Below, piece by piece: positions 42,247 to 64,000 of a stretch of DNA of 64,000 nucleotides. The position numbers and the translations under genes are program-made. The notes beneath the pieces are model-generated. The model saw only the letters and a list, made by a program, of their open reading frames with translations. It was not told where the DNA came from and made no database searches. The DNA is taken from the IMG/VR virus record IMGVR_UViG_3300042402_004628, positions 6,831-70,830 of that record. One strand, 5' to 3'. How positions within the stretch are numbered: position 1 is the stretch's first letter; every line of letters begins with the position of its first letter. Source of the stretch: a virus.

Positions 42247-42248
42247 AT

Positions 42249-43257: not shown

Positions 43258-43289
43258 TTTGCACATTAAATTTATTGCACTTATCTTTG
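43258..43289 (+). promoter_or_regulatory. cassette promoter for start 43313
   Basis: Consensus. Confidence 0.65.
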
Positions 43290-43312
43290 TGTCGAAATCA
43301 AAAATAAAAATC

Positions 43313-44056
43313 ATGTTTAATCTAGGGTACACGTACAAGAAGCCTACCACACTGTTTGGTACGCAGAATGCAAAGACAAAGAAAGGTGAAAAACTGGGGT
43401 ATACAACCTATATCCTGTATATGTCACCAGAAAAACAAAACACGCTTGGCAAGAACATTTGCCCGAAAGCCACAGCAGGCTGTTCGAAGTCATGTCTCTT
43501 CACAGCGGGTCGTGGCAAGTTTAGCAATGTCATGAAAGGTCGTCTGAATAAGACTGAATACTTTCTTCGTGACAAGGTGAACTTCATGGACGATGTTGTT
43601 AAGGAAATTAAAAAGGGTATTAAAAAACATGGTGCGGGTGCAATGTGCGTTCGTCTCAATGGTACCTCTGATATTCCTTACGAGAACATTCCAGTGGGTG
43701 GTTTTAAAAATGTCATGGAAATGTTTCCTGATGTGCAATTTTACGATTACACAAAGATCTATTCAAGGTTGACAAAGCAATTGCCTGCGAACTATCACCT
43801 TACCTTTTCCAGGGCGGAGACAGAGGACAACCAACGCGAAGCGGACAAAGCACTCGCACTTGGTTTCAATGTCGCTGTTGTTTTCGCTGTTAAGGACGAG
43901 ACAGAACTTCCCGCTGAATACAACAATGCAAAGGTTATCAATGGTGACGAGCACGATCTTACTTTCTTACATGGCAATGGTGTTGTCGTGGGGTTGAAAG
44001 CAAAGGGTGAAGCAAAGAAAGATGATACAGGTTTCGTAGTAAGGGGTTGTAACTAA
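43313..44056 (+). CDS. hypothetical protein (248 aa)
   Basis: MFNLGYTYKKPTT...; promoter 43258-43289; terminator 44041-44072. Confidence 0.55.
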   Translation: MFNLGYTYKKPTTLFGTQNAKTKKGEKLGYTTYILYMSPEKQNTLGKNICPKATAGCSKSCLFTAGRGKFSNVMKGRLNKTEYFLRDKVNFMDDVVKEIKKGIKKHGAGAMCVRLNGTSDIPYENIPVGGFKNVMEMFPDVQFYDYTKIYSRLTKQLPANYHLTFSRAETEDNQREADKALALGFNVAVVFAVKDETELPAEYNNAKVINGDEHDLTFLHGNGVVVGLKAKGEAKKDDTGFVVRGCN

Positions 44057-44072
44057 CCCCTTATTTTTTTTT
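44041..44072 (+). terminator. intrinsic terminator
   Basis: AAGGGGTTGTAACTAACCCCTT + T9. Confidence 0.65.
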
Positions 44073-44081
44073 GCATTCAGA

Positions 44082-44113
44082 CTTGCAAGTTAAATTAAAT
44101 TCATATACCTTTG
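44082..44113 (+). promoter_or_regulatory. cassette promoter for start 44118
   Basis: CTTGCAAGTTAAATTAAATTCATATACCTTTG. Confidence 0.55.
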
Positions 44114-44117
44114 TCAT

Positions 44118-44435
44118 ATGAAAGCAAAACAAAACAATTATCCAAAGTTTATCATCCGTTGGAACGGTCGATTCCATAAGGGTCTGATAACCGAAGACTT
44201 CGTCTTCTACTGTAACTACCAGGAAGGAGATGATAACGGCAATGTTGAGATGTATCGCAGGGTTGAATCTAACCCGCATGACAGGGACAACAGCGGGCTA
44301 GAATTGGTATCGAACAATTACTTTGCTAGCGTTGGTCTCTTCGAAGCGCTCGAGGCGGGCGTCTGGGAATACATCTCACCAACCATGAAACTGAATTATA
44401 AACTAGCAAAAGAAGCGGGACAATTCGATGAGTAA
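44118..44435 (+). CDS. hypothetical protein
   Basis: Promoter 44082-44113. Confidence 0.5.
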   Translation: MKAKQNNYPKFIIRWNGRFHKGLITEDFVFYCNYQEGDDNGNVEMYRRVESNPHDRDNSGLELVSNNYFASVGLFEALEAGVWEYISPTMKLNYKLAKEAGQFDE

Positions 44436-44739
44436 GAAAGAAAGAAAAATATACGAGACCTCTGTAATATACAGAGGGTACCAGACATTTAAACTGTGCT
44501 GGGCCACCTCATATGCTGAAGCTGCCAGGATCTTGGATGTGGCCCCTAGTTACCTTAAGAATTACGGCCTGTCTTATAAACGCGATCGGGATTTTGACTT
44601 CGAGGGTTGTTATGGGTATATCGATTCAGGTGAGATCATCTTTGGTGAACCAGGACGACCTGATCTGATGAGAAAACTTATGCCATGGGCGGAGTTGACG
44701 GAGATCGTTGATACTTATATTAAAGAGAAATACGAATGA
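44428..44739 (+). CDS. hypothetical protein
   Basis: Overlapping start/stop chain; elevated GC. Confidence 0.45.
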   Translation: MSKKERKIYETSVIYRGYQTFKLCWATSYAEAARILDVAPSYLKNYGLSYKRDRDFDFEGCYGYIDSGEIIFGEPGRPDLMRKLMPWAELTEIVDTYIKEKYE

Positions 44740-45101
44740 GACCAGAATTCAAGATATACAGGAATCTACACAGAGACTGTTTCAGTGTGATGAGATGGAA
44801 CCAGGAGAAGAGAGGGTACCGTCTGTATCAGCATGTCAAGGATCTAGAAGCTTACGGCGTAACGTTCAGGGTATCTCAGGCTGGACGGGCCAGGGTTCTG
44901 GAGACGAAGCAAAAGAATGTACATGCATTCGTATGCTGCCAAGAATTCAAGCTTGCTTCTGGGGCCGCGAACCTGGGTGAGGAGATCTACTACAATCCAT
45001 ACAAGATGGAAACGTTCAGGATCAAGAGCTCGGACGAATCGATTCTGAATGCAGATTCGGTTATCATGACGAATAATAAATGTTATTTAAATGTGATCTG
45101 A
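44736..45101 (+). CDS. hypothetical protein
   Basis: ATGA overlap. Confidence 0.45.
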   Translation: MRPEFKIYRNLHRDCFSVMRWNQEKRGYRLYQHVKDLEAYGVTFRVSQAGRARVLETKQKNVHAFVCCQEFKLASGAANLGEEIYYNPYKMETFRIKSSDESILNADSVIMTNNKCYLNVI

Positions 45102-45105
45102 ATTC

Positions 45106-45657
45106 ATGGGCGGAGATGAGAGAAGCGCGATAGAAGTGATCGCTGAATTCACGTCACCATTTGAGGATTCACTTAACGTGTTAATCCTAGGTGATCATAT
45201 AGATGATCTTGAGGCTGCTGAAGTAAAGGCGGCGTTCGATCGAACCAGGAATGAATTCCTGAGTCTGCCATCGGTGGACGAGGAGAAGATGGCCCCGATC
45301 AAATATATTAAAATTAATACATCCGAATTTTTCAGGGGGAAGATCAGTAATAAAATTAAGAAGGAACCCTGTGTTGTATATCTGGATCACGAGCTCAGCA
45401 AAAATGCTTTGAACATCCTCACCAATAATAACAGTGAGGTGGATGATCTGGAGGAAATGCTTCTGGAGAAATATCTTTTCGGGATCAACCAGGAAAAATT
45501 TATTCTGGATCTCACCAGCTGTCTGGATGAAAGGATCGAACTTCTCATGAGTGCCATGGACGCCAGAGCTGGGGAATTCAATTATGTTCTGGTGGAAAAG
45601 TATCTGGCGATCTGGATATATGCGCTTGACGAATTCGCCCCATTTCAGTTCGATTAA
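45106..45657 (+). CDS. hypothetical acidic protein
   Basis: 183 aa. Confidence 0.45.
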   Translation: MGGDERSAIEVIAEFTSPFEDSLNVLILGDHIDDLEAAEVKAAFDRTRNEFLSLPSVDEEKMAPIKYIKINTSEFFRGKISNKIKKEPCVVYLDHELSKNALNILTNNNSEVDDLEEMLLEKYLFGINQEKFILDLTSCLDERIELLMSAMDARAGEFNYVLVEKYLAIWIYALDEFAPFQFD

Positions 45658-45684
45658 AAAAAAGATAAAAAAAGTTTCAAAAAA

Positions 45685-45716
45685 ACTTGCATAATAAAAA
45701 AAGTTGTATTACATTT
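45685..45716 (+). promoter_or_regulatory. cassette promoter with no ORF downstream; leads into an inverted repeat and the GAATTCA repeat array
   Basis: CTTGCATAATAAAAAAAGTTGTATTACATTTG. Confidence 0.5.
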
Positions 45717-45735
45717 GTAGTCCTTAAGAGTTCAG

Positions 45736-45794
45736 GCCTGGGAGGCAACCCTTTCTCTCTGTTTTGTTTTTGATTTCAAAAAGTCCTCCCAGGT
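45736..45794 (+). other. long-range inverted repeat (CCTGGGAGG ... CCTCCCAGG) downstream of the ORF-less promoter
   Basis: 9-bp arms about 40 nt apart. Confidence 0.5.
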
Positions 45795-45803
45795 TCTGTT
45801 CTC

Positions 45804-45942
45804 GAATTCAAGTTTAAGTTTCTACTAGAATTCAACCCCGTATAATTTTTAGAATTCATATTGCTGGATCTTCCAGAATTCATATCCGTAACTTTTTTAG
45901 AATTCATATATAAATAAAAAAGGTGAACCCTTTTAGAATTCA
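45804..45942. repeat. array of six (T)AGAATTCA repeats (iteron-like), the first three on a 24-bp register
   Basis: GAATTCA at about 45804, 45828, 45852, 45886, 45900, 45936. Confidence 0.65.
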
Positions 45943-45957
45943 CCTTTCAGTTTTTTT
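45920..45957 (+). terminator. hairpin + T-run closing the ORF-less transcript from promoter 45685
   Basis: GGTGAACCCTTTTAGAATTCACC ... T7. Confidence 0.5.
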
Positions 45958-45967
45958 ATGTATTCAC

Positions 45968-46225
45968 TTATTCGTCATCCGCTTCTTTCTTGCGTCTGGT
46001 CTTTCTGGTTGGTAAACCTCTTTTCTCACGTATCCTGTCCCTGAGTTCCATCACCTTCAGGATGGCTGTGATCACCGCGATGAAAAGACCGAGGATCACA
46101 CCGATCAATTGTAGGAGATCTGTTGCACTCATGGTGATTGATAACATTGATGATAATATTCCGTATTCAGGTTTTTTAGTTAGTGTATCCGTTAATTGGG
46201 TGATGAGTGTGTCCTTCATTTTCAA
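45968..46225 (-). CDS. holin-like small membrane protein (one TM plus a highly charged C-terminus)
   Basis: 'LLQLIGVILGLFIAVITAILKV' then RDRIREKRGLPTRKTRRKKEADDE. Confidence 0.4.
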   Translation of the reverse strand: MKMKDTLITQLTDTLTKKPEYGILSSMLSITMSATDLLQLIGVILGLFIAVITAILKVMELRDRIREKRGLPTRKTRRKKEADDE

Positions 46226-50439: not shown

Positions 50440-50676
50440 TTATTTCGTTAATTTTATAAAGATTCCAGCTGGCCCATGTGATACATGATAACCACAACAT
50501 CTATTGTCCAAAGTCATACCATACGATTTAAGACGAAATATTATCGCGGACTCAGCCTCACCATAAAAAATAGCGTGAACCGTGCTATCAGCGTAATCAA
50601 TTGAAACGCCAATTATTTTATTTATTGCCCAAGATGGGTTTATGTCCAACTCTTCAACTGGTATGTGTACTAACAT
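50440..50676 (-). CDS. hypothetical small protein
   Basis: ORF track. Confidence 0.4.
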   Translation of the reverse strand: MLVHIPVEELDINPSWAINKIIGVSIDYADSTVHAIFYGEAESAIIFRLKSYGMTLDNRCCGYHVSHGPAGIFIKLTK

Positions 50677-51500
50677 TGTATTCTTTTTAATACGTCTAAT
50701 ATTCTTGAGTATGCTTCAACACCAACTGGTATCGACATTAATGAGACCAAAAAGTTACTGATGTATGAGTACATTGCGATGATATCCCCTTGAGATAACT
50801 TGTCAGATGTCTTGATGAAGACAATCAAAGCTGTCACAAGAAATGTATATTTAACCGCATTCACCCAGAACCAATTCTTTCCTTGTAATGTTGAACCGTA
50901 TATCCATAACTTTCTTCTTCTGTTAAAGAAACTTGTTATCTCATCCTTATTGGAACGATTGATAACATCAACTTTTTTCTCATATTGATTGTTCCCAACA
51001 ACAGTTGCTTGTTTTATCTTCTTGTAAAACTTAAACACAATAAACATAATTGGGAACACACAACCCAACACAATGAAACCTGTTATCAAACTTCCCCTCA
51101 TCACAAAAACCAAACTACCCAGAACCGTGACAATAACGGAAATGTAATAATGAACGTAACTCTCGAGAACATCCACAATCTGGTGAGCCATATCTGTCCT
51201 GGCTACCTTAGATGAGTTATCAACATCGGTCTTATGTATAAACTCCATCACGATGTTGTTATATATCTTTGTGTATACCTTTGTGTCATAAACCATTCTC
51301 TTGTATATGAACATGGTTGATCCAGCGTAAACCAGAACCAAACCAATCAACCAATTCCAGTTACCAACCAACAAACCATCAATCGTCTTTCCAAGAAAAT
51401 AGGGTTGCAATAAAAGCAAACCCTCGGCAATTAACATGTAAGTGTATATTAATAATAACTCATACTTATATTGCTTAAATATATTAATCAGATGTTTCAT
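50670..51500 (-). CDS. ABC-exporter-type transmembrane domain protein with no ATPase domain
   Basis: Six-helix layout with 'LLLLQPYFLGKTIDGLL' resembling the ABC_membrane N-terminal helix; no Walker motifs. Confidence 0.45.
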   Translation of the reverse strand: MKHLINIFKQYKYELLLIYTYMLIAEGLLLLQPYFLGKTIDGLLVGNWNWLIGLVLVYAGSTMFIYKRMVYDTKVYTKIYNNIVMEFIHKTDVDNSSKVARTDMAHQIVDVLESYVHYYISVIVTVLGSLVFVMRGSLITGFIVLGCVFPIMFIVFKFYKKIKQATVVGNNQYEKKVDVINRSNKDEITSFFNRRRKLWIYGSTLQGKNWFWVNAVKYTFLVTALIVFIKTSDKLSQGDIIAMYSYISNFLVSLMSIPVGVEAYSRILDVLKRIQC

Positions 51501-54481: not shown

Positions 54482-55087
54482 TTAATTAATTTTTTCTATG
54501 TAACTTAAAACCTCTTCTTTAGTATTAACCCAATCCAATAGTTCGTAGTGTTCGCCTTTGGCGTTTATAAACTCGGCGTTGATTATTTGCAAACTATCTT
54601 CAACATTGTGAATGTTTCCGATGTATCGCTCACGTGCTTCATCGTCATATTCAAAAAGACAACCATCGGAATCTTCCTCAACTCTGATCGTGCTTCCCCA
54701 TTTAACAATGTTCCAGAAAGCGCCACCCTCGGATATTGATGTTGCAAAATCATCCACATCGAATGATTCAGCATCTTCTTTGATTGGCATGTCCCAAGTT
54801 TCTTTCAACATTGGTAGCAACTCGTTCCACCATTTAACATCACCATCAAAATTATCCTCAACGGTAACAACAACCTCGGCAATACCATGCTCTTCTTCAT
54901 CATCCCAGTATAATTCATCACCCTCGGTGGATATCCATTTCTTGGTGAAATCCTCTGAGAATCTGATTGAATCGAGTAGTTCTGTTAAAAATCTAACCCA
55001 CGCTGACTCATCCGATTCTAACTCCTCAAACAAATCGTAATCAGTAATTTTGTAAGTTAATGTGTAGGATACTTTAAACTTTTTCAT
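54482..55087 (-). CDS. acidic hypothetical protein
   Basis: 201 aa, D/E/W-rich. Confidence 0.5.
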   Translation of the reverse strand: MKKFKVSYTLTYKITDYDLFEELESDESAWVRFLTELLDSIRFSEDFTKKWISTEGDELYWDDEEEHGIAEVVVTVEDNFDGDVKWWNELLPMLKETWDMPIKEDAESFDVDDFATSISEGGAFWNIVKWGSTIRVEEDSDGCLFEYDDEARERYIGNIHNVEDSLQIINAEFINAKGEHYELLDWVNTKEEVLSYIEKIN

Positions 55088-55091: not shown

Positions 55092-56543
55092 TTAAATTTT
55101 AATCTTTATGTTTTCGATAATTAAATCACCAGTGTGAATACCGTTATGTTTATAAATTTCAACATGGTATCTGTTAGATGAGTTGACCTCAAATTCAAAT
55201 TGCATTGTTGGTCTACCGTCAGCGTTGAGTGTTCTACAACAACCCTTTTCACAAGACTCACCAGGCATTTTATGATCGGCTCCGAAGAAAGACATATAAC
55301 CCGCGAAGCTCTCAACCATATTCGGGTGTGCTGTTGTTAATTTATTTCGATTAACGTAAACCTCATAGACACCTTTAGGTATCTTCGTGAATGAAACGGT
55401 TAATACTAATTTAACTCTATTTGGCGCACCTAGCTGGCCACTTGTTGGCGTAACCTGTGTGACAGCATCTGTGATTTGACCATTAATTGGTATGCTGAAA
55501 TTATTGCTATGTAAAACATTGTTGTATGCTCTAGCCATCATCGGTTGATCAGCTTTTTCATATACCTCAACATCATCATAATCATAATCAAGTTTGTATA
55601 TTATCTTTATCACATCTTCCATTGTATAGGTAACTTTCTTACCATTCTCATCGAAGAAAACATAAGACCAGTCAGCTGATTTTAACATCTCCAATGTAAC
55701 TTTCTCCCCATTCGGAGAATTAGTCCATTGCTGCCATAGTCTATCAATGTTTGAGTGATGTGTCCAGAAAACTGGATCAAACCCAGCTGTCGGAACCCAA
55801 CCCATCAACCCTGTCTCACTAATTTTACCAGTGATTGGGTTGTTGAACAACTTACCAGTTTGTACATTACCAGCGCCGATGTAATCGTGCATCGCACCAT
55901 GTGGGGCATTGTTAATCTGCGAGTTAAACATTTCGTATGAGGTGTAACTCATTAATTTATCTGTCTCCAAAGCTCTTTGGATTTCACCTGCAATAGGATA
56001 ACCATAGTTCAAGCTATCAAATCTACAACGTTCATATAGGGATGATTTCGGATCTCTGAATTTTTCTTGTAAAAATTTGTCGTAGTCAAAATTATTTGTG
56101 TAGCCCCAATAAGGTAATGCGAAATCTTTATATCCAGACAATTTTCTAACTATCTTTTCTAAATGGTGAATGTATAATCTATGCCAAACCAAGAAATGAA
56201 TTTTTTCTTTACCACTTGGTGTATGTGTACAATTATCCCAAGCTTCTTTTAAATCGGCTGGGGTCTTATAGCTTGGGCACAGTGGGTTATATAAGATTGT
56301 GTCGGGAACCCAATGAATTGCACCTTGATAATACCAACTCAATGGGTTATCACAAGGCATATTACGCATAATTTTAAAGGCTTTGTCCATGGCTTCAACG
56401 TCCATTTGTGCCTCTGGTGTGTGAATTTCTTTTCGGAGATATCGTTTTCCAACAACATCTCCAACGCTTTCGGTTCTGTCTTTACATGATATTAGCCATA
56501 ATAGGCCAAACATCAAAATGAATAGTATTAATATTTTTTTCAT
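55092..56543 (-). CDS. tyrosinase / polyphenol oxidase (type-3 copper), predicted lipoprotein
   Basis: CuA 'HFLVWHRLYIHHLE', CuB 'HGAMHDYIG...DPVFWTHHSNIDRLWQQW'; N-terminal MKKILILFILMFGLLWLISC lipobox. Confidence 0.8.
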   Translation of the reverse strand: MKKILILFILMFGLLWLISCKDRTESVGDVVGKRYLRKEIHTPEAQMDVEAMDKAFKIMRNMPCDNPLSWYYQGAIHWVPDTILYNPLCPSYKTPADLKEAWDNCTHTPSGKEKIHFLVWHRLYIHHLEKIVRKLSGYKDFALPYWGYTNNFDYDKFLQEKFRDPKSSLYERCRFDSLNYGYPIAGEIQRALETDKLMSYTSYEMFNSQINNAPHGAMHDYIGAGNVQTGKLFNNPITGKISETGLMGWVPTAGFDPVFWTHHSNIDRLWQQWTNSPNGEKVTLEMLKSADWSYVFFDENGKKVTYTMEDVIKIIYKLDYDYDDVEVYEKADQPMMARAYNNVLHSNNFSIPINGQITDAVTQVTPTSGQLGAPNRVKLVLTVSFTKIPKGVYEVYVNRNKLTTAHPNMVESFAGYMSFFGADHKMPGESCEKGCCRTLNADGRPTMQFEFEVNSSNRYHVEIYKHNGIHTGDLIIENIKIKI

Positions 56544-56553: not shown

Positions 56554-56754
56554 TTATTTTACAACATTAAGTAAAAAAAGTGTGATGTAAACCATAGATA
56601 CAACTGTCATAAATTTAATTGTCATGGCGATGATGGGTTTAGTACCGTTAACTTTAGCAACAAGCATGAAGGATCCTGTTGCATAGAACCAAATGATGGT
56701 TATGATCTTAGCAATGTCTAATATGTTCATAGTTTTAATTTTTAAATAAATCAC
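56554..56754 (-). CDS. small two-TM membrane protein
   Basis: ORF track 66 aa, hydrophobic. Confidence 0.4.
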   Translation of the reverse strand: MIYLKIKTMNILDIAKIITIIWFYATGSFMLVAKVNGTKPIIAMTIKFMTVVSMVYITLFLLNVVK

Positions 56755-57298
56755 TCAGGTATTGAAACATTTCAAAGTAAGGTTCGGTGGCATACCAAGT
56801 AAACCCCAACTTAGTCATGAATTCCTCATTTTCTTTTTTATACATCTCAAACATACGACTACCAGTCATCTTAGAGTATTGTACATTAGCGATACGATCA
56901 CATAATTTAACAAATACAGCGCCTTTGGTATTACGAATACCCTCATAGTATTTGTCATTGGCACGTTCCTTACGGTTCTTACCCTTTTCATTGGTTACAG
57001 CATAAATAATCTCAGCCGCTTCCTGACCCAAAATATCTTTAACATCGTTATATGACACACGACAATCTTCGATCAAATCGTGGCCCCAACAAGCAAGCAT
57101 ACATGCGTGTTTAGTCGAAACCTGTGTGGTTGGATTAACAACCACATCACCAGTAAAGTATTCTTTATCGTCTAAAAGATGGTTGTACTTCTCACCGACA
57201 TGGGCCACCATTCTCAAGTGGAACTCATACGGTAAGTATGTGTCGTACATGTGGTTTGTTTCATTGTGCTTCTCAATGCACCATTTTTTCTTATCCAT
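56735..57298 (-). CDS. HD-domain hydrolase, RelA/SpoT-type small alarmone hydrolase (SAH/Mesh1)-like
   Basis: 'AHVGEKYNH ... WGHDLIEDC' (H..H..HD-x-x-ED signature); ~187 aa; own promoter 57316-57347. Confidence 0.6.
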   Translation of the reverse strand: MDKKKWCIEKHNETNHMYDTYLPYEFHLRMVAHVGEKYNHLLDDKEYFTGDVVVNPTTQVSTKHACMLACWGHDLIEDCRVSYNDVKDILGQEAAEIIYAVTNEKGKNRKERANDKYYEGIRNTKGAVFVKLCDRIANVQYSKMTGSRMFEMYKKENEEFMTKLGFTWYATEPYFEMFQYLSDLFKN

Positions 57299-57397: not shown

Positions 57398-57754
57398 TTA
57401 AGATTTTTTGTAATAGATCGTATCAGGTAAAGACCCAAACACGAACTTGGTTACGTCACATAACCACATTTTAATATCAAATGGTATACCCATGTAAGAC
57501 TCAACCTTATATGTGGCACCAGAACCATTCCCCTCATCATACAACCAACCATCCGAAATTTTTTTGAGCTCCTCAGCACCCTCAAATGGTTTATCGGACA
57601 ATGCTATCCAAATATACCACTCACCTTCACATAGCAAATCAAGCCAGGTGTCAGCACCAAGAACCATTTGTAGATCGGCTTTAGATCCTTCCCATTCTGG
57701 AAGATCAACAAACCAACCATTAAATTCTTTATCAAATCTTAATCTTTGTTTCAT
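57398..57754 (-). CDS. hypothetical protein
   Basis: ORF track. Confidence 0.45.
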   Translation of the reverse strand: MKQRLRFDKEFNGWFVDLPEWEGSKADLQMVLGADTWLDLLCEGEWYIWIALSDKPFEGAEELKKISDGWLYDEGNGSGATYKVESYMGIPFDIKMWLCDVTKFVFGSLPDTIYYKKS

Positions 57755-58137
57755 AAACTACATTTAAACATATAGTTAAATATCTCACAATTTGAATTTA
57801 GTTTAGATAAATCTGGAAAGGTCACATCACCTATATAGTTATTATCTATATGTGATATGTGTAACTCGGTGAACATGTGTGCATATTTTTCATATGTTTT
57901 TTTGCCACCAATGCACCAATCAATAACTTCGATATCTGGATTCCAAAGTCCCCTGGTATCGATTACAACTTCACGACCCTTCAATGGTGGTAACTCTAGT
58001 GATGTGTTGTAGCCAACGAGTAATCTACCACCCATGGTTTTTTCTTTGAAATGTTTGAAATCTTCGGAACTACGCCATAGCATTTTATTACCGATTCCTA
58101 TGAACCCGAGATTATTTACAGCAATTATAGCTTTCAT
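57751..58137 (-). CDS. folA: dihydrofolate reductase
   Basis: 'IIAVNNLGFIGIGNKMLW...DFKHFKEKTMGGRLLVGYNTSLELPPLKGREVVI...IGGKKTYE' matches the DHFR fold motifs. Confidence 0.8.
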   Translation of the reverse strand: MKAIIAVNNLGFIGIGNKMLWRSSEDFKHFKEKTMGGRLLVGYNTSLELPPLKGREVVIDTRGLWNPDIEVIDWCIGGKKTYEKYAHMFTELHISHIDNNYIGDVTFPDLSKLNSNCEIFNYMFKCSL

Positions 58138-58704: not shown

Positions 58705-58921
58705 CTTCTTTTTTAATATCCTCTCGAGTTAATTCTTTTTCAGCTTGGTGCATGAAGATAATCTCTTTTGTTTGTTCATCAACTGTGCAAGCGGCAATTG
58801 GTTTATCAACTCGGTAATGATATTCTTCTCCTAGCATACCAACTTCTCCGTTGACAACTTCAAAGGCATCAAACTCCTCTGGTAGGGTGTTGAGCCACGT
58901 TTTTAATTCTCCTAAATTCAT
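58691..58921 (-). CDS. hypothetical protein
   Basis: ORF track. Confidence 0.4.
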   Translation of the reverse strand: MNLGELKTWLNTLPEEFDAFEVVNGEVGMLGEEYHYRVDKPIAACTVDEQTKEIIFMHQAEKELTREDIKKEDGKD

Positions 58922-59943
58922 ATATCGTAAGGTGTTGTACTGAATGTTATCTTCTCGATACTCAAACAGTTTGTGTTTATTATTTTTTCGATAAACATAA
59001 TAAAATCAGAAACAATATCAAATGATTTTATTTGTTTGTTCAGGTATAGGTTGTAAACCCCAATTTCTTGAAGAACATCTGATTTATTGATTATTAAATC
59101 AGTCACACCGTTGATGTTAATTGCTTTGATCATATCGTCCAAGTCCAACCAATCAACTTGCCTCGGTCTACCAGTTGTTGCACCAAACTCATTACCAACT
59201 TCTCTTATCTTCACAAACAATGGGTCTGCACCTTCAAAGTTTTTGGCACCAACATATGTGCGATAAGCTTTTGCAACGCCGTACACTCTGTCAATTTTTT
59301 GTGCTGGTATTCCATTAAGGATGGCCCCACCAATTGTGCAATGTGATGATGTAACATATGGGTAATCACCCCAATCAATATCCAACTCAAAACCCTGAGC
59401 CCCTTCGCAAAGTATACTACAACCGTCTTGCCCATTAAATAATCCGTATGTATCAACAACCATGTCGGCTAACATAGGAACATCAACAGCTCTAAGACCT
59501 TTTCGATAATACTTATCTCGGTAAGCTGGGCCATTCCCAGTTTTAGTCGTACCGATTTTACTATCCAAACTATCTTCGTGTAGATGTTGCTCGGTGATGA
59601 TGTGAACACGTTTATCAATCAATAAGTTCTCACGAACTTTAAATCCAGCTAATTCGAGTTCATCAATTTCTTGAATAAGTTTGTCTGGGTTGACCACACA
59701 ACCAAGTCCAATAATTGATTTGATTCCATACAATACACCAACTGGTATGAAATGTGTTACATATTTTTCACCATTGTGATATATCGTGTGACCAGCATTA
59801 CCACCACCATTGTAGCGCATAACATAATCATACTCATCTGGCTTCTTAGCCAGAGCGTGGGCAACCTTGCCCTTTCCAGTGTCACCCGCTTGCAGGTCAA
59901 CAATTACATCAGCTTTGCGTATCATAGTGCGTGGTTTTCCCAA
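58918..59943 (-). CDS. purA: adenylosuccinate synthetase (short form)
   Basis: 'GDTGKGK', 'RYNGGGNAGHT', 'GTTKTGNGPAYRDK', 'EGAQGFELDIDWGDYPYVTSS', 'GNEFGATTGRPRQVDWLD' align to PurA motifs; the real start may be the internal MIRKADV. Confidence 0.85.
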   Translation of the reverse strand: MGKPRTMIRKADVIVDLQAGDTGKGKVAHALAKKPDEYDYVMRYNGGGNAGHTIYHNGEKYVTHFIPVGVLYGIKSIIGLGCVVNPDKLIQEIDELELAGFKVRENLLIDKRVHIITEQHLHEDSLDSKIGTTKTGNGPAYRDKYYRKGLRAVDVPMLADMVVDTYGLFNGQDGCSILCEGAQGFELDIDWGDYPYVTSSHCTIGGAILNGIPAQKIDRVYGVAKAYRTYVGAKNFEGADPLFVKIREVGNEFGATTGRPRQVDWLDLDDMIKAININGVTDLIINKSDVLQEIGVYNLYLNKQIKSFDIVSDFIMFIEKIINTNCLSIEKITFSTTPYDI

Positions 59944-60432: not shown

Positions 60433-62295
60433 TTATTTTACCTCGGTTACAGTACCCTGTTCAGATTCTTTTTTCTCTTGGATTTGCTTTAACAATTCCA
60501 TTCCAAGTAAGCCATTGATTGGGCTACTATCACCACTACCTGTGATAAGAATCTCAGGGATGATTTTGATACCATTTGTACCAATCATTTCGGTAACTTT
60601 AAGTTTACCAAAGTTTTCAACACCCATAGCTTTAACTTGCTTTTCGTAAGCCTCAGCAGTTGATTTACCAATCGCGGAAATCTTAGATGCTTCAGCATCA
60701 CCAGTCAATTTAATCTGCGTAGCATCAGCTTCAGCGTTCAATTTCTTAGCTTCAGCTTGAGCGGCAGCTTTTAATTTCAAGGCTTGTGCTTCACCCTCAG
60801 ATTTCTTAACAGCGGCCTCAGCTTCACGTTGAGAAATCTCAACCGATTGTTGTGCTGACACCATTTGTCCTTGCATATCGGCAAGTGCTTTAGCCGATTC
60901 AAGCGTCTTACGTTTATCTTGAGCTTTGCGTTGAGTGTCAAATGTTACCTCTTCTTCTTGTGCAATCTTACGGTCAGTAAGAGTTTTCATCAGAGAGTCT
61001 GGTGGTGTGATGTCACCAATAAGCGTATCAACCGCATGCACGTTGTATTCTTCAAGAACCGTGCTGATCTTATCTTTAGCAGCATTCTGTCTTTGTTGAC
61101 GAGTTGATAAGAACGCAATCACATCAGAATCTTGTGCCGAGTTACGGAAATAGTTACCGATGGTTGGTTCAAGAACTTGTGACACAAGGTTCTGCATTGA
61201 GCCGAAACGAGCAATTACTTTAGGCGCTTCGGTTGATGGGATGTGGATAATCTGTGAAACATCCAAATTGAATGGGAAACCGTCTTGTGAACGTACTGTG
61301 ATGGTACTCAAGTTCTTATCAAGATTGTGTGATTCATTACGAGCATTTGCCCAGTTAAGAACCAAGTTTGTTGTTGGTACTATCTCAATCTTCTGTGTAT
61401 AAGGATTGATTGCGTATTTACCTGGATCCAATGGGGTTGCCCACACACCTTTCTGACCTTTTTTAACGATGTTACCGTGTTTAAAATCACTTCCAGTGGT
61501 GTCTTCACCATCTTCACCAACATAAGAGATAACAACACCAACATGACCGATAGGAATGGATGTCATTTCTTTCTTCTCAACTTCGATTGCCCATGGGTTC
61601 AATGAATAAGAACCAGCTTGAATAACTTGGATTTGTAAACCCCTTTGTCCACCATTAGCCAAAAACTTATCAAAGTCTTGGAAATTATTGTGACCGCTAA
61701 CCACAGAACCAGCGATTGAACCAATCTCAAGTGGTGTACCATCAAGTGCTGTAACAACGCCAACCATACCATCTTCAATGTATGTGATGTCAGCGAGGAA
61801 TATCTCGAATAAATGGGTATTAACACGATACACACCGTTGTTTAAATAACCAACTTGTTTACCACGTTGTCCACCTGTTGATAAAAACGCTCTAGCATCT
61901 TGGTAATCATCACAATCAACGTGTCGAGCCAAGATAGCACCCTTTGGTAACTGTGCGCCATCTTTAGCTGATAACAAGCCGATCTTACCTTTAGGTATTG
62001 TTGTTAAAGGGGCTTGTTCGATTTCGAATTGCCATATCCAGTAAGCCCAATATAAACCTGGGGCTAATGTGTCGGCCTGAAAGCCTGGTTCATTGTTTAA
62101 GGCGATAATCTTACCATCGGGTAATTGTTTATTGGGGCCAAAAAGTACAAATTTTTTGGTCACCAAACCAATTTTGTCTTCAGGTATGATAACCATACCA
62201 AAGAACACTCGTAGTACGAACTTGTAGAATACTACCATGAGGATCGGGATTAAAACCCATGCGTAACCCAATACGCTAGTTAATTGTTCTGTCAT
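60433..62295 (-). CDS. flotillin-like SPFH/band-7 protein (YqiK-type) with EA-rich C-terminal coiled coil
   Basis: N-terminal TM, SPFH-like core, 'AEAAVKKSEGEAQALKLKAAAQAEAKKLNAEADA' flotillin-type repeats. Confidence 0.7.
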   Translation of the reverse strand: MTEQLTSVLGYAWVLIPILMVVFYKFVLRVFFGMVIIPEDKIGLVTKKFVLFGPNKQLPDGKIIALNNEPGFQADTLAPGLYWAYWIWQFEIEQAPLTTIPKGKIGLLSAKDGAQLPKGAILARHVDCDDYQDARAFLSTGGQRGKQVGYLNNGVYRVNTHLFEIFLADITYIEDGMVGVVTALDGTPLEIGSIAGSVVSGHNNFQDFDKFLANGGQRGLQIQVIQAGSYSLNPWAIEVEKKEMTSIPIGHVGVVISYVGEDGEDTTGSDFKHGNIVKKGQKGVWATPLDPGKYAINPYTQKIEIVPTTNLVLNWANARNESHNLDKNLSTITVRSQDGFPFNLDVSQIIHIPSTEAPKVIARFGSMQNLVSQVLEPTIGNYFRNSAQDSDVIAFLSTRQQRQNAAKDKISTVLEEYNVHAVDTLIGDITPPDSLMKTLTDRKIAQEEEVTFDTQRKAQDKRKTLESAKALADMQGQMVSAQQSVEISQREAEAAVKKSEGEAQALKLKAAAQAEAKKLNAEADATQIKLTGDAEASKISAIGKSTAEAYEKQVKAMGVENFGKLKVTEMIGTNGIKIIPEILITGSGDSSPINGLLGMELLKQIQEKKESEQGTVTEVK

Positions 62296-62620: not shown

Positions 62621-64000
62621 TTATAATTTATTTAAACGTTCACGAATTTCAGTTAATGTTGTTTGGTTGTGGAACTTACCATCTTCATAAATGGTTTGTA
62701 AGATTCCAGTTCCCTCTTGCTCCCAAGTACATTGAGTTAATACCTCATGGTCTTCAGTTACACAGATCAAACCTTTCAAAGATTTCTTGGTACCATCATC
62801 AGTTACTGGATCTTTGTAGATGTTGTAACCAACCTTTCCTTTTGGAATTAAAGCACTTCCCAAAAGTCCATCGGCTGAAGGTATAGTATCAAACTCCTCA
62901 ACTTCAAACCAAGCACCTTTGGCTGCGAAACCTAAAGTGTCACGGGTATTCATTTGGTAAGTAAATGAACCAACACCCAATACAATGTTTGTTGCCGCAA
63001 ATCCTTTTGCTTCCAATCTCTTGTAGATTTCAATTTGACGGTCTAATGTGATTGAATCTCCGTAGATTGCTCCGATGTGTGGGTCAAGAACCTTGTAACC
63101 TTGTTCATTGATTGTTCCACCAAAGATGTCCCAAAGTAATTCTATTACCCCGACTTCAGCAGGTGTTTTATACTCACCAGGCGCATCGGATAATTGTTCT
63201 TCTCTACCACAAATAATATCAACTGGATCACCAGAGTCAGGACGAATTACTAACTTACCGTCACGAGCCATGATAGCTTCTTTGTTTGCTGGTAAGTATT
63301 CAGTAATCAACTTCCACAAATCAAATGTGTCAGATACAATTGATAGGATTCCATTCGGAAAATCTACCAACCAATCGGCAATCATTTGTTGTTCACCAAC
63401 AGTAAAGATTTTTGTTGTTGATACAGAGTGTTCAGATGCGTTAACCGAGTTAATGCACACTTCGTCTTTTGGTTCATTATAGAAATAACGAGCCCCTGGA
63501 ATACAGATGATTGTATCTGAACCACGGAACGATGTTGCATGTCCCATTCCACTAGTCAACATATCCCATGGTGATAAACCACGTGCTGAAAAGTCATGAC
63601 ACATAAAAGGAATTAACCAAGCTGTTGATGGGTCGGTTTTCATAACCCACTCAACAACATTACGTTTGTATTGCAATGCTATTGTTGCTGATGTGGATGG
63701 TTTCCAAGCCAACGAACTGATAATTGTTTCCAAATACAATGTCAACCACGCAAACCCATCGACAGTATTGATGAAAGTCATGTGTGGAACATTTGGGTTT
63801 GTTTCAATACCTTCAGGTAGTGCTTTAACACGAATAGGTAAGTAACCTAATCTGTGTAGTGCAACGAAGTGTGATGCATCGTAATCCATTCCAAGATACA
63901 ATGACATATCTTTTCCAAAGTTAACCGCAACTTCCTCGGGTAAACTGAAAAAGTTCTCTTGAAATTCATCATGTAACCATTTAACAACCAATTGTTGTCC
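62621..64000 (-). CDS. nadV: nicotinamide phosphoribosyltransferase (NAMPT/NadV), 5' end beyond the window
   Basis: 'IRPDSGDPVD', 'GSDTI', C-terminal 'IYKDPVTDDGTKKSLKGLICV' match NAMPT; the frame stays open to position 64000 (the track start 63991 is a TTG artefact). Confidence 0.8.
   Translation of the reverse strand, partial: GQQLVVKWLHDEFQENFFSLPEEVAVNFGKDMSLYLGMDYDASHFVALHRLGYLPIRVKALPEGIETNPNVPHMTFINTVDGFAWLTLYLETIISSLAWKPSTSATIALQYKRNVVEWVMKTDPSTAWLIPFMCHDFSARGLSPWDMLTSGMGHATSFRGSDTIICIPGARYFYNEPKDEVCINSVNASEHSVSTTKIFTVGEQQMIADWLVDFPNGILSIVSDTFDLWKLITEYLPANKEAIMARDGKLVIRPDSGDPVDIICGREEQLSDAPGEYKTPAEVGVIELLWDIFGGTINEQGYKVLDPHIGAIYGDSITLDRQIEIYKRLEAKGFAATNIVLGVGSFTYQMNTRDTLGFAAKGAWFEVEEFDTIPSADGLLGSALIPKGKVGYNIYKDPVTDDGTKKSLKGLICVTEDHEVLTQCTWEQEGTGILQTIYEDGKFHNQTTLTEIRERLNKL

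What the first reader, a model, noticed from the sequence alone, without database searches (positions are those of the whole stretch)
55092..56543. Lipoprotein-anchored tyrosinase (type-3 copper polyphenol oxidase) in a phage metabolic operon
Both copper sites are intact: CuA HFLVWHRLYIHH, and CuB HGAMHDYIG...FWTHHSNIDRLW. A lipobox signal (LWLISC) is present. Tyrosinases are rare in phage genomes. A surface-exposed enzyme that oxidises phenols or generates melanin could alter host envelope chemistry, ROS or UV protection, or superinfection exclusion.
Basis: partly seen in the sequence, partly recalled or inferred. Interest (0 to 1): 0.75.

Follow-up and report, generated by a model that had tools for sequence, protein, structure and literature searches.

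The report
Phage-borne latent tyrosinase with cysteine lid
A large uncultivated bacteriophage carries an intact, exported, membrane-tethered copper enzyme of the tyrosinase (phenol-oxidising) family, belonging to a virus-associated lineage that has replaced the histidine/methionine loop of its bacterial relatives with a three-cysteine loop; no deposited phage genome has such an enzyme and its role in infection is unknown.

Summary
ORF 55092-56543 (-) encodes a 483-aa type-3 copper protein (Pfam Tyrosinase, E = 1.5e-26). All six copper-ligand histidines are intact, and there is a Sec/lipobox signal (LISC20).

- The protein is a two-domain latent pro-enzyme. A C-terminal beta-sandwich lid, homologous to those of plant PPOs and Hahella HcTyr1, carries an invariant Phe420. 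This residue aligns with HcTyr1's crystallographic active-site plug, Phe397.
- It belongs to a clade of at least 125 metagenomic sequences. These sit on gene-dense, phage-like contigs of up to 476 kb, in at least six unrelated genome backgrounds, and no species-representative cellular genome falls inside the clade. The clade is marked by a C-x3-C-C loop just after the plug (123/125 sequences, against 0/62 cellular homologues, which have His/Met-rich loops and often copper-handling neighbour genes).

No homologue was found in 50,697 deposited phage genomes, PHROGs or BFVD.

The most likely function is a self-sufficient periplasmic phenol oxidase that loads its own copper. Surface exposure is not supported, and the benefit to the phage is unknown. 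I rate it a new variant of a known kind, of moderately high interest.

The parts
55092..56543 (-). Complete gene for a 483-aa pre-pro-tyrosinase (type-3 copper phenol oxidase)
   Evidence: The ORF is. Pfam Tyrosinase scores E = 1.5e-26, with PPO1_DWL also detected. The AF2 model has pTM 0.84. Foldseek gives probability 1.0 to the latent two-domain tyrosinases/PPOs 8b74, 4z11, 6els, 6hqi and 7xio.
56484..56543 (-). Sec-type signal peptide ending in lipobox L-I-S-C20 (residues 1-20); no twin-arginine
   Evidence: The translation is MKKILILFILMFGLLWLISC. Across the clade, 57 members have a lipobox and 63 have a signal-anchor.
56181..56315 (-). CuA site: H77, C105-x-H107 (thioether-type motif) and H121 (residues 77-121)
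   Evidence: The translation is. The residue alignment to HcTyr1 8B74 is, with ligand numbering from PMC11609597. H77, C105 and H107 are invariant in 187/187 homologues and H121 is His in 186/187.
55755..55901 (-). CuB site: H215, H219 and H263 (H262 is the conserved non-ligating seventh His); residues 215-263
   Evidence: The translation is. These residues are invariant in 187/187 homologues. The seventh-His precedent in vsTyr comes from PMC10526336.
55095..55526 (-). C-terminal beta-sandwich lid domain (about residues 340-483)
   Evidence: The AF2 secondary structure is all-beta from residue 343. The lid profile A2 hits the apple latent PPO 6els (E = 1.9e-4), its isolated C-terminal domain 6elv/6elt, and HcTyr1 8b74 (E = 3.3e-3).
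55236..55289 (-). Plug and metal loop FFGADHKMPGESCEKGCC: F420 is the putative active-site placeholder; C431-x3-C435-C436 is the clade-specific tri-cysteine motif
   Evidence: The translation is. F420 aligns to the HcTyr1 placeholder Phe397 (PMC11609597). CxxxCC occurs in 123/125 clade members against 0/62 cellular homologues. AF2 pLDDT is below 50 for residues 425-434, so the loop is flexible.
56554..56730 (-). Upstream 58-aa two-helix membrane protein, 10 nt from the tyrosinase start; not conserved next to the tyrosinase in other phages
   Evidence: The sequence is. There is no Pfam, PHROG or NCBIfam hit. It is not shared with other loci.
56735..57298 (-). HD-domain phosphohydrolase (SpoT/RelA-hydrolase-like), first gene after a terminator-like hairpin at 57378-57351
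   Evidence: It matches phrog_990 at E = 2e-25 and TIGR00691 weakly.
54482..55087 (-). Downstream acidic 201-aa protein of unknown function, starting 4 nt after the tyrosinase stop
   Evidence: The ORF is. No family hit was found. It is not shared with other tyrosinase-bearing phage loci.

Best explanation
**Proposed function.** The gene encodes a phage-borne pre-pro-tyrosinase. Each step below is marked as shown or inferred.

1. **Export (inferred from sequence).** The protein is exported unfolded through Sec and stays tethered to a membrane outside the cytoplasm. In this phage the tether is lipidation of C20. In about half of its relatives it is an uncleaved signal-anchor helix.

2. **Catalytic domain (shown by homology and conservation).** The domain is a canonical type-3 dicopper centre with ligands H77/H107/H121 and H215/H219/H263. 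It has a fungal/molluscan-type C105-x-H107 thioether motif.

3. **Latency (shown by profile alignment and fold match; not checked on coordinates).** A C-terminal beta-sandwich lid inserts Phe420 into the substrate pocket. The enzyme is therefore made latent and needs the lid displaced or cleaved at the variable linker (about residues 330-345).

4. **Copper loading (inferred).** The loop that follows the plug loads copper into the exported apo-enzyme.
   - In cellular homologues this loop is rich in His and Met, and the gene often sits beside copper-handling genes.
   - In the viral clade the loop has become D-H-x-M-x4-C-x3-C-C and the gene travels alone.
   - This mirrors Aspergillus oryzae pro-tyrosinase, where plug F513 is followed by C522/C525, which act with the thioether Cys92 to insert copper.
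   - The phage enzyme would therefore be a self-contained module that needs no host chaperone.

5. **Reaction and pay-off (inferred; pay-off not established).** Once unplugged, the enzyme uses O2 to oxidise catechols, and possibly monophenols or tyrosyl side chains, to o-quinones in the envelope of the infected Bacteroidota host. Quinones polymerise and cross-link. Candidate benefits to the phage are photoprotection or ROS protection, detoxification of environmental phenolics, and chemical masking of envelope receptors.
For: **Identity**
- Pfam Tyrosinase E = 1.5e-26.
- PDB sequence hits to hemocyanin functional units, HcTyr1 and plant PPOs.
- Foldseek probability 1.0 to full-length latent PPOs.

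**Ligands**
- Alignment to 8B74, with ligand numbers from PMC11609597.
- Five of the six ligand histidines are invariant in 187/187 homologues and H121 is His in 186/187.

**Lid and plug**
- Profile A2 matches 6els, 6elv, 6elt and 8b74, and F420 aligns to Phe397.
- F419 and F420 are invariant in 187/187.
- Removing the HcTyr1 lid raises activity about 10-fold.

**Copper loop**
- CxxxCC occurs in 123/125 clade members and 0/62 cellular homologues.
- The 25 residues after FFG hold on average 3.0 Cys and 0.7 His in the clade, against 0 Cys and 3.4 His in cellular homologues.
- The A. oryzae precedent is F513 with C522/C525/C92 (PMC5855855).
- Cellular homologues have a Cu-oxidase_3-like protein plus a small CxxC protein upstream in 31/66 loci, and MbnB/DUF2063 in Mucilaginibacter.
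- These partners are absent from the window and from the phage flanks.

**Export**
- Lipobox and no RR motif.
- 120/125 clade members have an N-terminal hydrophobic segment.

**Phage context**
- The exact protein is found on a 298.7-kb contig and on 19 other contigs with identical neighbours.
- The window has 115 ORFs, median 116 aa, 83% coding.
- PHROG families are present, including a helicase and a 'tRNA ligase' family shared with P-SSM2, P-SSM7 and 484-735-kb huge phages.
- About 19 IMG/VR loci carry the gene, on contigs up to 476 kb.
- In six further metagenomic contexts, by my count about 25% of neighbours have Pfam hits, against roughly 73% database-wide.
- Gene density is 1.52 per kb around clade members and 0.91 per kb around cellular homologues (p = 2.4e-4).
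- In the NJ tree all 125 sequences are monophyletic and exclude all 62 cellular representatives.
Against: - No activity, copper content or thioether bond can be measured here.
Plugging by F420 rests on sequence/profile alignment and on the global fold match, not on a measured distance.
- AF2 confidence is low for residues 81-110 (which hold C105 and H107) and 421-440 (the Cys loop).
- In an oxidising periplasm the three cysteines might simply form a disulfide.
- The residues thought to favour monophenolase activity are atypical: Gly216 at HisB1+1, and Asn211 rather than Glu at the 'waterkeeper' position HisB1-4 (definitions from PMC10526336). True tyrosinase activity, as opposed to catechol-oxidase activity, is therefore uncertain.
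- No capsid, portal or terminase gene was identified inside the 64-kb window, so viral identity rests on context statistics and relatives.
- The monophyly of the clade is partly a product of how the top 120 hits were selected.
Confidence: 0.6

Rival explanations
1. The tri-cysteine loop does not handle copper. It forms a periplasmic disulfide (plus one free thiol) that rigidifies or redox-gates the lid, or it traps quinone products. Copper enters the active site unaided or through host factors.
For: - The periplasm is oxidising.
- The clade has about 4.5 more cysteines per mature protein than cellular homologues (7.7 against 3.2).
- The loop is predicted to be disordered, so no geometry supports a metal site.
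Against: - The loop replaces, at the same position, a His/Met-rich stretch typical of periplasmic Cu-binding motifs in every cellular homologue.
- An odd number of cysteines (three), with a conserved preceding His/Met, resembles the A. oryzae plug and CxxC copper-insertion arrangement.
- The swap coincides with loss of copper-handling neighbour genes.
Confidence: 0.3
2. The protein is not a catalyst during infection. It is a permanently plugged dicopper protein that binds O2 or sequesters copper (hemocyanin-like), for example to lower periplasmic O2, ROS or copper toxicity in the infected cell.
For: - The best PDB sequence scores are to molluscan hemocyanin functional units, which share the C-x-H motif and a plugging C-terminal beta-sandwich.
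- No lid-cleaving protease and no substrate pathway is encoded nearby.
Against: - The hemocyanin scores are inflated by 7-8 repeated units per chain. The best single-domain and full-length structural matches are enzymes (HcTyr1, aurone synthase, apple and tomato PPO, Ralstonia TYR).
- The plug is Phe, as in activatable pro-tyrosinases.
- A membrane-tethered protein that carries only one dicopper centre seems an inefficient O2 or copper sink (inference; expression level was not assessed).
Confidence: 0.07
3. The contig is not viral, or the gene is a recent accidental passenger captured from the host with no phage-specific role.
For: - No structural or packaging hallmark gene was found inside the 64-kb window.
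- IMG/VR contains some cellular fragments; for example L113, with a His-type loop, looks chromosomal.
Against: - The same protein with the same neighbours occurs on 20 contigs, six of the collection blocks holding contigs of 0.2-1 Mb.
- The window is gene-dense with tiny ORFs and phage-restricted families.
- The clade occurs in at least six unrelated phage-like backgrounds where the tyrosinase is the only shared gene.
- The best homologue among 185,579 species-representative genomes is only 35-49% identical by tblastn, and at most 54% identical to any clade member on trimmed alignment columns.
- The clade has its own derived motif, which argues for long residence and selection in viruses.
Confidence: 0.05
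4. It is a dedicated biosynthetic oxidase (o-aminophenol oxidase or ortho-hydroxylase of the GriF/NspF/BagH type) acting on one specific small molecule made by the phage or the host.
For: There is a weak NCBIfam similarity to BagH/FevF o-aminophenol oxidase.
Against: - The score is 23 bits against a cut-off of 630, and 36 against 450 for MelC2.
- No biosynthetic partner genes are conserved beside it in any of 12 phage loci.
- The protein is exported, whereas such pathways are cytoplasmic.
Confidence: 0.04

Closest known systems
HcTyr1, tyrosinase of Hahella sp. CCB MM4 (PDB 8B74; PMC11609597)
   Same: - It is the best single-domain sequence hit and the top Foldseek hit.
- It has the same two-domain build: catalytic domain plus LID.
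- It has the same 'YQGAIH' CuA-1 motif and the same C-x-H CuA-2 motif.
- Its plug Phe397 aligns with F420.
- It is latent, and becomes about 10-fold more active when the lid is lost.
   Different: - Identity is only about 19-20% over the structural alignment.
- In our protein the CuA-2 to CuA-3 loop is 5 residues longer.
- HcTyr1 has neither a Cys nor a His cluster after the plug (FGLENASTPSVESD).
- The phage protein has an N-terminal lipobox or anchor.
- HcTyr1 is chromosomal.
Plant latent polyphenol oxidases (apple MdPPO1 6ELS, aurone synthase 4Z11, tomato PPO 6HQI)
   Same: - Full-length fold match (TM about 0.6, probability 1.0).
- The PPO1_DWL middle motif is detected.
- The C-terminal shielding domain is homologous at profile level, including the 'FAG..F...PH' strand.
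   Different: - In plant enzymes the thioether Cys comes four residues after the first CuA histidine (HxxxC), not in a C-x-H motif (own knowledge, consistent with PMC10526336).
- Pfam did not report PPO1_KFDV for the phage protein.
- Plant enzymes are targeted to the plastid lumen, not lipid-anchored.
- They have no tri-cysteine loop.
Aspergillus oryzae pro-tyrosinase MelB (3W6Q/3W6W)
   Same: - C-x-H thioether topology.
- A C-terminal domain whose Phe513 plugs the pocket, followed a few residues later by cysteines (C522, C525) that cooperate with the thioether Cys92 to insert copper (PMC5855855). The phage protein has F420, then C431/C435/C436, plus C105.
- It appears among the fold hits.
   Different: - The structural match is much weaker (TM about 0.4, 14% identity).
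- The motif is CxxC rather than Cx3CC.
- MelB is a cytosolic fungal enzyme with no export signal.
- The correspondence of the Cys motifs is an analogy, not a demonstrated homology.
Cellular homologues in Bacteroidota (Mucilaginibacter, Flavobacterium cerinum, Telluribacter, Emticicia: sister group; wider Flavobacterium/Tenacibaculum group)
   Same: - Same length and domain order.
- The copper ligands, C105 and the FFG plug motif are all conserved.
- The sister group also consists of lipoproteins.
- These are the probable evolutionary source of the phage gene.
   Different: - At most 54% identity to any clade member.
- A His/Met-rich loop in place of SCxxGCC.
- HisB2+1 is Asn in the sister group and Asp in the phage clade.
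- They are often embedded with copper-related neighbours (Cu-oxidase_3-like plus CxxC protein, or MbnB/DUF2063).
- They sit in chromosomal contexts with lower gene density.
Streptomyces MelC2 tyrosinase with MelC1 caddie
   Same: It has the same dicopper chemistry. The concept is also shared: a plug residue (caddie Tyr98) combined with a His/Met copper-delivery surface. This comparison is from my own knowledge, with the caddie role as summarised in PMC10526336.
   Different: - In MelC2 the plug and chaperone are a separate protein, and export is Tat-dependent.
- The phage protein scores 36 bits against the MelC2 model cut-off of 450.
- It has no adjacent caddie gene and no RR motif.

Membership tests
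Type-3 copper protein / tyrosinase superfamily (Pfam PF00264) | Score above the Pfam gathering threshold for the tyrosinase central domain | tested here: met
   94.5 bits against a cut-off of 22.6, E = 1.5e-26.
Type-3 copper protein / tyrosinase superfamily (Pfam PF00264) | Six histidine ligands, three for CuA and three for CuB, at the canonical positions | tested here: met
   The ligands are H77, H107, H121, H215, H219 and H263. The CuA ligands (H77, H107, H121) were placed by residue alignment to 8B74, with ligand numbers. The CuB ligands were placed from the conserved H-x3-H and HH motifs and the vsTyr seventh-His precedent. H77, H107, H215, H219 and H263 are invariant in 187/187 homologues and H121 is His in 186/187. 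The spacing between CuA-2 and CuA-3 is 13 residues rather than the usual 8, because of a loop insertion.
Type-3 copper protein / tyrosinase superfamily (Pfam PF00264) | Four-helix-bundle catalytic fold | tested here: met
   The AF2 model has pTM 0.84. Foldseek gives probability 1.0 to many tyrosinases, catechol oxidases and PPOs.
Type-3 copper protein / tyrosinase superfamily (Pfam PF00264) | Copper binding and O2-dependent phenol or catechol oxidation | not testable with these tools
   This needs expression, metal analysis and enzyme assays.
Latent (lid-bearing) tyrosinases / polyphenol oxidases | C-terminal beta-sandwich domain homologous to the PPO shielding domain | tested here: met
   Profile A2 against the PDB gives 6els E = 1.9e-4, the isolated C-terminal domain 6elv E = 2.1e-3, and 8b74 E = 3.3e-3. 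The full-length Foldseek matches are to latent forms. Pfam PPO1_KFDV itself was not reported.
Latent (lid-bearing) tyrosinases / polyphenol oxidases | A bulky placeholder residue of the lid occupying the substrate pocket | tested here: inconclusive
   F420 aligns to the crystallographic placeholder Phe397 of HcTyr1 and is invariant in 187/187.
Latent (lid-bearing) tyrosinases / polyphenol oxidases | Activation by removal or displacement of the lid | not testable with these tools
   The only indication is a variable, lower-confidence linker at about residues 330-345.
Cys-His thioether-bearing type-3 copper proteins (fungal, molluscan, vsTyr topology) | Cys two residues before the second CuA histidine (C-x-H) | tested here: met
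   C105-T-H107 aligns with C76-Q-H78 of 8B74. C105 is invariant in 187/187. The covalent bond itself cannot be tested here, and it was not seen in the apo HcTyr1 crystal.
Streptomyces-type MelC2 tyrosinase with caddie | Equivalog-level similarity to MelC2, an adjacent caddie (MelC1) gene, and Tat export | tested here: not met
   NF047834 scores 36.4 bits against a cut-off of 450. There is no conserved partner gene and no RR motif.
Bacterial lipoprotein (signal peptidase II substrate) | Positively charged n-region, hydrophobic h-region, and lipobox [LVI][ASTVI][GAS]C | tested here: met
   The N-terminus is MKK, then ILILFILMFGLLW, then L-I-S-C20. Lipidation and final location cannot be tested here. 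The lipobox is not conserved across the clade (57 of 125 members).
Phage auxiliary (host-derived) gene | The gene lies inside a viral genome | tested here: met
   - The gene sits on a 298.7-kb contig recovered repeatedly.
- The window has 1.8 ORFs per kb with a median of 116 aa.
- PHROG families shared with cyanomyophages and huge phages are present.
- The NAMPT gene is 75% identical at nucleotide level to that of Tenacibaculum jumbo phage PTm1.
- Related tyrosinase loci are classified as viral in IMG/VR.
Phage auxiliary (host-derived) gene | Virion or packaging hallmark genes on the same molecule | tested here: inconclusive
   None was found among the roughly 40 window proteins scanned. Only 64 kb of the roughly 299-kb genome is available.

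The most novel reading that the evidence does not exclude
Large phages of Bacteroidota have domesticated a copper phenol oxidase into a self-loading module that is tethered in the host envelope and is latent until triggered. During or after lysis it deliberately alters the chemistry of the infected cell's envelope by quinone cross-linking or melanisation. The benefit could be shielding the virocell and progeny from UV and ROS, or destroying or masking receptors on the cell and its debris (an enzymatic superinfection-exclusion or anti-debris-trapping device). This would be a previously undescribed class of phage-host interaction. It would also be a viral contribution to phenolic carbon turnover in natural waters and soils.
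Probability: 0.25. Interest if true: 0.85.

Novelty: new variant of a known kind. Interest (0 to 1): 0.66.

Why it matters
**For phage biology.** Tyrosinases are well-known enzymes, but none has been described in a bacteriophage in the sources I could search:
- 50,697 deposited phage genomes.
- PHROGs.
- BFVD.
- Four full-text literature searches (of 7.7 million PMC papers plus bioRxiv) aimed at phage tyrosinases, which found no report.

This gene is not a one-off. It defines a virus-associated lineage spread over at least six unrelated large-phage backgrounds, which implies a selected function. An exported, O2-consuming, quinone-generating enzyme is an unusual thing for a phage to place in its host's envelope. 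Explaining it could reveal a new infection strategy.

**For enzymology.** The clean swap of a His/Met loop for a Cx3CC loop next to the plug residue, together with the loss of copper-handling neighbour genes, is a natural experiment on how type-3 copper centres are metallated after Sec export.

**For ecology.** Phenol oxidases are discussed as controls on carbon storage in phenolic-rich environments (PMC11609597). Viral copies would add a new player.

Tried and rejected
- **Deposited phages.** A tblastn of the protein against deposited phages gave no match. Megablast of 19 kb of the window found only a 340-bp NAMPT match to Tenacibaculum phages PTm1 and PTm5.
- **Family scans.** PHROG and PADLOC scans of the tyrosinase gave nothing. 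NCBIfam gave only far-sub-threshold MelC2 and BagH hits.
- **Viral structures.** The BFVD fold search returned only low-TM beta-sandwich hits and no tyrosinase.
- **Conserved partner gene.** I looked for a caddie, chaperone or protease next to the tyrosinase across 12 phage loci. Only the tyrosinase is shared; UvdE is near it in two lineages. The adjacent 58-aa membrane protein and 201-aa acidic protein are not conserved elsewhere and have no family hits.
- **H116 as a CuA ligand.** I first considered H116, which lies 9 residues after H107 (the canonical H-x8-H spacing). I rejected it. It aligns to Tyr82 of HcTyr1, it is Asn in about half of the cellular homologues, and H121 sits in the universal WHR motif.
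- **Lid fragment alone.** A phmmer search of a 67-aa lid fragment against the PDB gave only noise. A profile of the whole lid was needed.
- **CuB alignment to HcTyr1.** A CuB-region search meant to show the HcTyr1 alignment listed only hemocyanin alignments. The activity-controller comparison with HcTyr1 was therefore not obtained.
- **Hallmark genes, tRNAs, promoters.**
  - No virion hallmark genes were found in two PHROG scans of the window.
  - No tRNAs were found.
  - The sigma-70 promoter scan was at background level, 33 found against 35.8 expected.
- **One paper unavailable.** PMC3724665 (Fujieda 2013) is not held. Its findings were taken from a review that cites it.
- **Model coordinates.** These were not available to scripts, so no distances could be measured.
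Full report
**1. The observation**

The ORF at 55092..56543 on the minus strand is real and complete: ATG start, 483 aa, stop included.

- It scores well above Pfam's threshold for the tyrosinase central domain (PF00264, 94.5 bits, E = 1.5e-26).
- It scores marginally above threshold for the polyphenol-oxidase middle motif PPO1_DWL (22.7 bits against 20.8).
- The best matches among solved structures are molluscan hemocyanin functional units, the Hahella tyrosinase 8B74, and plant PPOs and catechol oxidases.

**2. Active site**

Residue-level alignment to 8B74, read with the ligand numbering in its paper (PMC11609597), fixes the CuA ligands:

- H77 ('YQGAIHW', equivalent to His43).
- H107 (C105-T-H107, equivalent to Cys76-Gln-His78).
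- H121 ('WHR', equivalent to His87).

The loop between the second and third ligand is 5 residues longer than usual. H116 aligns to a tyrosine and is Asn in half of the cellular homologues.

CuB is formed by H215, H219 and H263. H262 is the conserved non-ligating seventh histidine described for vsTyr (PMC10526336).

Five of the six ligand histidines and C105 are invariant in all 187 homologues I aligned, and H121 is His in 186 of them. The C-x-H arrangement is the thioether topology of fungal tyrosinases, molluscan hemocyanins and vsTyr.

Substrate specificity cannot be read off the sequence:

- HisB1+1 is an invariant Gly.
- HisB2+1 is Asp.
- The 'waterkeeper' position HisB1-4 is Asn or Asp rather than Glu.

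Monophenolase activity, as opposed to catechol-oxidase activity, is therefore open.

**3. A latent two-domain pro-enzyme**

An AlphaFold2 model built on 24 homologues (pTM 0.84, mean pLDDT 79.6) shows a helical catalytic domain followed, from about residue 343, by an all-beta domain.

Foldseek against the PDB returns full-length matches to latent, lid-bearing enzymes:

- HcTyr1 (8b74).
- Latent aurone synthase (4z11).
- Latent apple tyrosinase (6els).
- Tomato PPO (6hqi).
- Ralstonia TYR (7xio).

A profile of the C-terminal part alone (A2) hits 6els, the isolated apple C-terminal domain (6elv, 6elt) and 8b74.

Counting along the 8b74 alignment, HcTyr1's placeholder Phe397 aligns with F420 of the invariant 'FFG' motif. 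Phe397 protrudes into the active site in the crystal, and removing its lid gives about 10-fold activation. F419 and F420 are invariant in 187/187 sequences.

I could not measure the contact because model coordinates are not exposed. The plug is therefore supported by homology, not by geometry.

**4. Export and tethering**

The N-terminus is MKK-ILILFILMFGLLW-LISC20. This is a textbook lipobox with no twin-arginine, so the protein is exported unfolded and must acquire copper outside the cytoplasm.

Across the clade, 57 members have a lipobox and 63 have only a hydrophobic helix followed about 10 residues later by the catalytic domain. There are at least 14 switches between the two states on the tree.

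The conserved property is membrane tethering outside the cytoplasm, not lipidation.

**5. Is it a phage gene?**

Evidence from the window itself:

- It has 115 ORFs with a median of 116 aa, and is 83% coding.
- It contains PHROG families: a helicase, ParB-like proteins, NUDIX, an HD hydrolase and several phage-only unknowns.
- It contains a protein family otherwise seen in Prochlorococcus myophages and in 484-735-kb huge phages.
- Its NAMPT gene is 75% identical at nucleotide level to that of the Tenacibaculum jumbo phages PTm1 and PTm5.
- The exact tyrosinase sequence, with identical neighbours, occurs on 20 contigs including one of 298.7 kb.

No capsid or terminase gene lies within the 64 kb I could scan. 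That hallmark remains unverified.

**6. A virus-associated clade**

The large protein database holds 981 homologues. The best 120 are 50-92% identical and of the same length.

In one genome from each of 185,579 species, the best homologues are only 35-49% identical (Mucilaginibacter, Flavobacterium, Telluribacter, Emticicia).

In an NJ tree, all 125 metagenomic and IMG/VR sequences form one clade that excludes all 62 cellular representatives. Its sister group is those Bacteroidota lipoproteins, and no clade member is more than 54% identical to any cellular sequence.

I inspected six further contexts, on contigs of 78-347 kb:

- All consist mostly of small ORFs with no Pfam hit. By my count 43 of 170 neighbours (25%) have a hit, against about 73% database-wide.
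- The genes that are annotated are typical phage auxiliary genes: ThyA, DNA ligase, NUDIX, dNMP kinase, ribosomal protein S21, GIY-YIG and HNH nucleases, SLT, ClpP and SAM synthetase.

IMG/VR holds about 19 such loci, on contigs up to 476 kb. One of them is the same contig as a context I had found independently (L090 = L105).

Gene density around clade members is 1.52 per kb (median ORF 153 aa), against 0.91 per kb (223 aa) around cellular homologues (p = 2.4e-4).

Across 12 loci from at least six backgrounds, the tyrosinase is the only shared gene. The gene has therefore moved, or been retained, on its own.

Caveat: the clade was assembled from the top hits to the query, so its monophyly is partly built in. 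The informative result is that no reference cellular genome falls inside it.

**7. The clade-specific cysteine loop**

Immediately after the FFG plug motif, the two groups differ sharply.

| Feature | Cellular homologues (n = 62) | Viral clade (n = 125) |
|---|---|---|
| Example sequence | FFGADHKHGVAH..., FFGVSHEHGTGENHE, FFGAMHKAQGHDMSNMDHMGNMNMP | FFGADHKMPGESCEKGCC |
| Mean Cys in the 25 residues after FFG | 0 | 3.0 |
| Mean His in the 25 residues after FFG | 3.4 | 0.7 |
| Members with CxxxCC | 0/62 | 123/125 |

The more distant IMG/VR members at 44-48% identity also carry CxxGCC.

His/Met-rich stretches are the usual chemistry of periplasmic copper-binding motifs (my own knowledge). In A. 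oryzae pro-tyrosinase, the plug F513 is followed by C522 and C525. Together with the thioether Cys92, these insert copper (PMC5855855).

Cellular homologues often sit beside copper-related genes:

- A Cu-oxidase_3-like secreted protein plus a small CxxC protein in 31/66 loci.
- An MbnB/DUF692-DUF2063 pair in Mucilaginibacter.

None of these partners occurs in the window or in the phage flanks, apart from one MopE-like gene in L098.

I therefore infer that the loop is a built-in copper-loading device, and that the viral lineage has evolved a thiolate-based, partner-independent version. The main alternative is that the cysteines form a structural or redox-sensitive disulfide. I cannot exclude this.

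**8. What it does for the phage**

This is not established.

The chemistry of an unplugged enzyme would be O2-dependent oxidation of catechols or phenols to reactive o-quinones in the envelope. Quinones polymerise to melanin-like material and cross-link proteins.

Hints:

- A UV-damage endonuclease gene lies within 1-5 kb of the tyrosinase in two independent phage lineages. That fits sunlit habitats and a photoprotective theme, but the evidence is weak.
- Latency suggests that activity is deferred, perhaps until envelope damage or lysis.

Other possibilities are detoxification of environmental phenolics and masking of receptors.

The host is probably a member of Bacteroidota:

- The sister clade is Bacteroidota.
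- GC content is about 36%.
- The NAMPT gene is similar to that of a Tenacibaculum phage.
- A protein with a T9SS sorting domain is encoded on one related phage contig.

**9. Comparison and novelty**

The protein is a member of the tyrosinase/PPO superfamily and of its lid-bearing latent subgroup. It is not a MelC2-type enzyme (36 bits against a cut-off of 450, no caddie gene, no Tat signal).

Three things are new:

- The viral setting. There is no homologue in 50,697 deposited phage genomes, no PHROG family, no matching fold in BFVD, and no report in four targeted full-text searches.
- The breadth of the virus-associated clade.
- Its derived tri-cysteine lid loop, coupled to the loss of copper-handling partner genes.

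I class it as a new variant of a known kind.

**10. Verdict**

- Interest is 0.66. The enzyme chemistry is ordinary. An exported, self-metallating, latent phenol oxidase maintained across many large phages is unexpected and can be tested directly.

Noticed in passing
window 62621-63907 (-) and 9945-11639 (+): There is a NAMPT/NAPRTase-family gene (Pfam E = 1.6e-29; 75% nucleotide identity to Tenacibaculum phages PTm1 and PTm5). There is also a 564-aa ParB-like/NUDIX fusion protein. Together they may form a phage NAD+ salvage pair.
   Followed up: partly
window 56735-57298 (-): An HD-domain phosphohydrolase (phrog_990, E = 2e-25) lies two genes upstream of the tyrosinase. It shows weak similarity to the RelA/SpoT hydrolase domain and may be a small alarmone hydrolase.
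   Followed up: partly
window 8225-9040 (+): A 271-aa protein (phrog_29758, E = 2e-98) is 47-56% identical to proteins annotated 'tRNA ligase' in Prochlorococcus phages P-SSM2, P-SSM5 and P-SSM7 and to unannotated regions of 484-735-kb uncultured huge phages.
   Followed up: partly
window 57751-58137, 58918-59943, 60433-62295 (all -): Three genes lie in the same co-oriented block as the tyrosinase: a short DHFR (128 aa), an adenylosuccinate synthetase (PurA, E = 4e-82) and a 620-aa SPFH/Band-7 protein (phrog_200, 'lipoprotein'). Strong terminator-like hairpins sit at 60422-60397 and 57378-57351.
   Followed up: partly
window 50670-51500 (-): A 276-aa membrane protein matches Pfam ABC_membrane_3 (E = 1e-20). 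No ATPase partner was identified nearby.
   Followed up: no
window 32000-46000: There is a strand switch and a GC rise (0.40-0.41 against about 0.35 elsewhere) over a block of plus-strand genes of about 200 aa. Most have no PHROG function. The block could be a different expression module.
   Followed up: no
L117-L131 (IMG/VR GVMAG contigs): About 15 giant-virus metagenome-assembled contigs encode distant tyrosinase-domain proteins of about 445-470 aa, 23-27% identical to the query. Those checked lack the C-x-H...WHR motif and show no recognisable lid loop. Eukaryotic giant viruses therefore also carry type-3 copper proteins.
   Followed up: partly
L028-L079 (e.g. L069 4497-7386; L076 4498-7485): In 31 of 66 cellular loci (Flavobacterium, Kordia, Tenacibaculum) the tyrosinase is the third gene of a conserved cluster. 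The cluster is a secreted Cu-oxidase_3-like protein of about 313 aa, a secreted protein of about 142 aa with a CSMCQHGAC motif, and then the tyrosinase.
   Followed up: partly
L009 3880-5805: In Mucilaginibacter sp. OK098 the tyrosinase is directly preceded by an MbnB/TglH/ChrH-family (DUF692) enzyme (E = 4e-107) and a DUF2063 protein. This pairing is typical of RiPP systems that make copper-binding peptides.
   Followed up: no
L089 12357-13331; L001/L002 12056-13024; L101-L103; L098 3850-4761: A UvdE UV-damage endonuclease gene lies 1-5 kb from the tyrosinase in two independent phage lineages. L089 also carries Fapy-DNA glycosylase and HhH-GPD genes nearby.
   Followed up: partly
L098 18154-19161: A phage-like contig encodes a 335-aa protein with PKD, MopE-type copper-binding and T9SS sorting (Por_Secre_tail) domains, 7 kb from its tyrosinase. 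This suggests a Bacteroidota host and possibly copper scavenging.
   Followed up: no
L089 5665-5853; L099 17735-18034: Phage-like contigs that carry the tyrosinase also encode a ribosomal protein S21 homologue (L089) and a Ribonuclease_P protein-component homologue (L099).
   Followed up: no
L113 and L033: An IMG/VR contig (28 kb) and a Bacteroidota MAG contig carry nearly identical tyrosinases with the cellular His-type lid loop. The L113 flanks have chromosomal gene density, so this 'viral' contig may be cellular or a prophage edge.
   Followed up: partly
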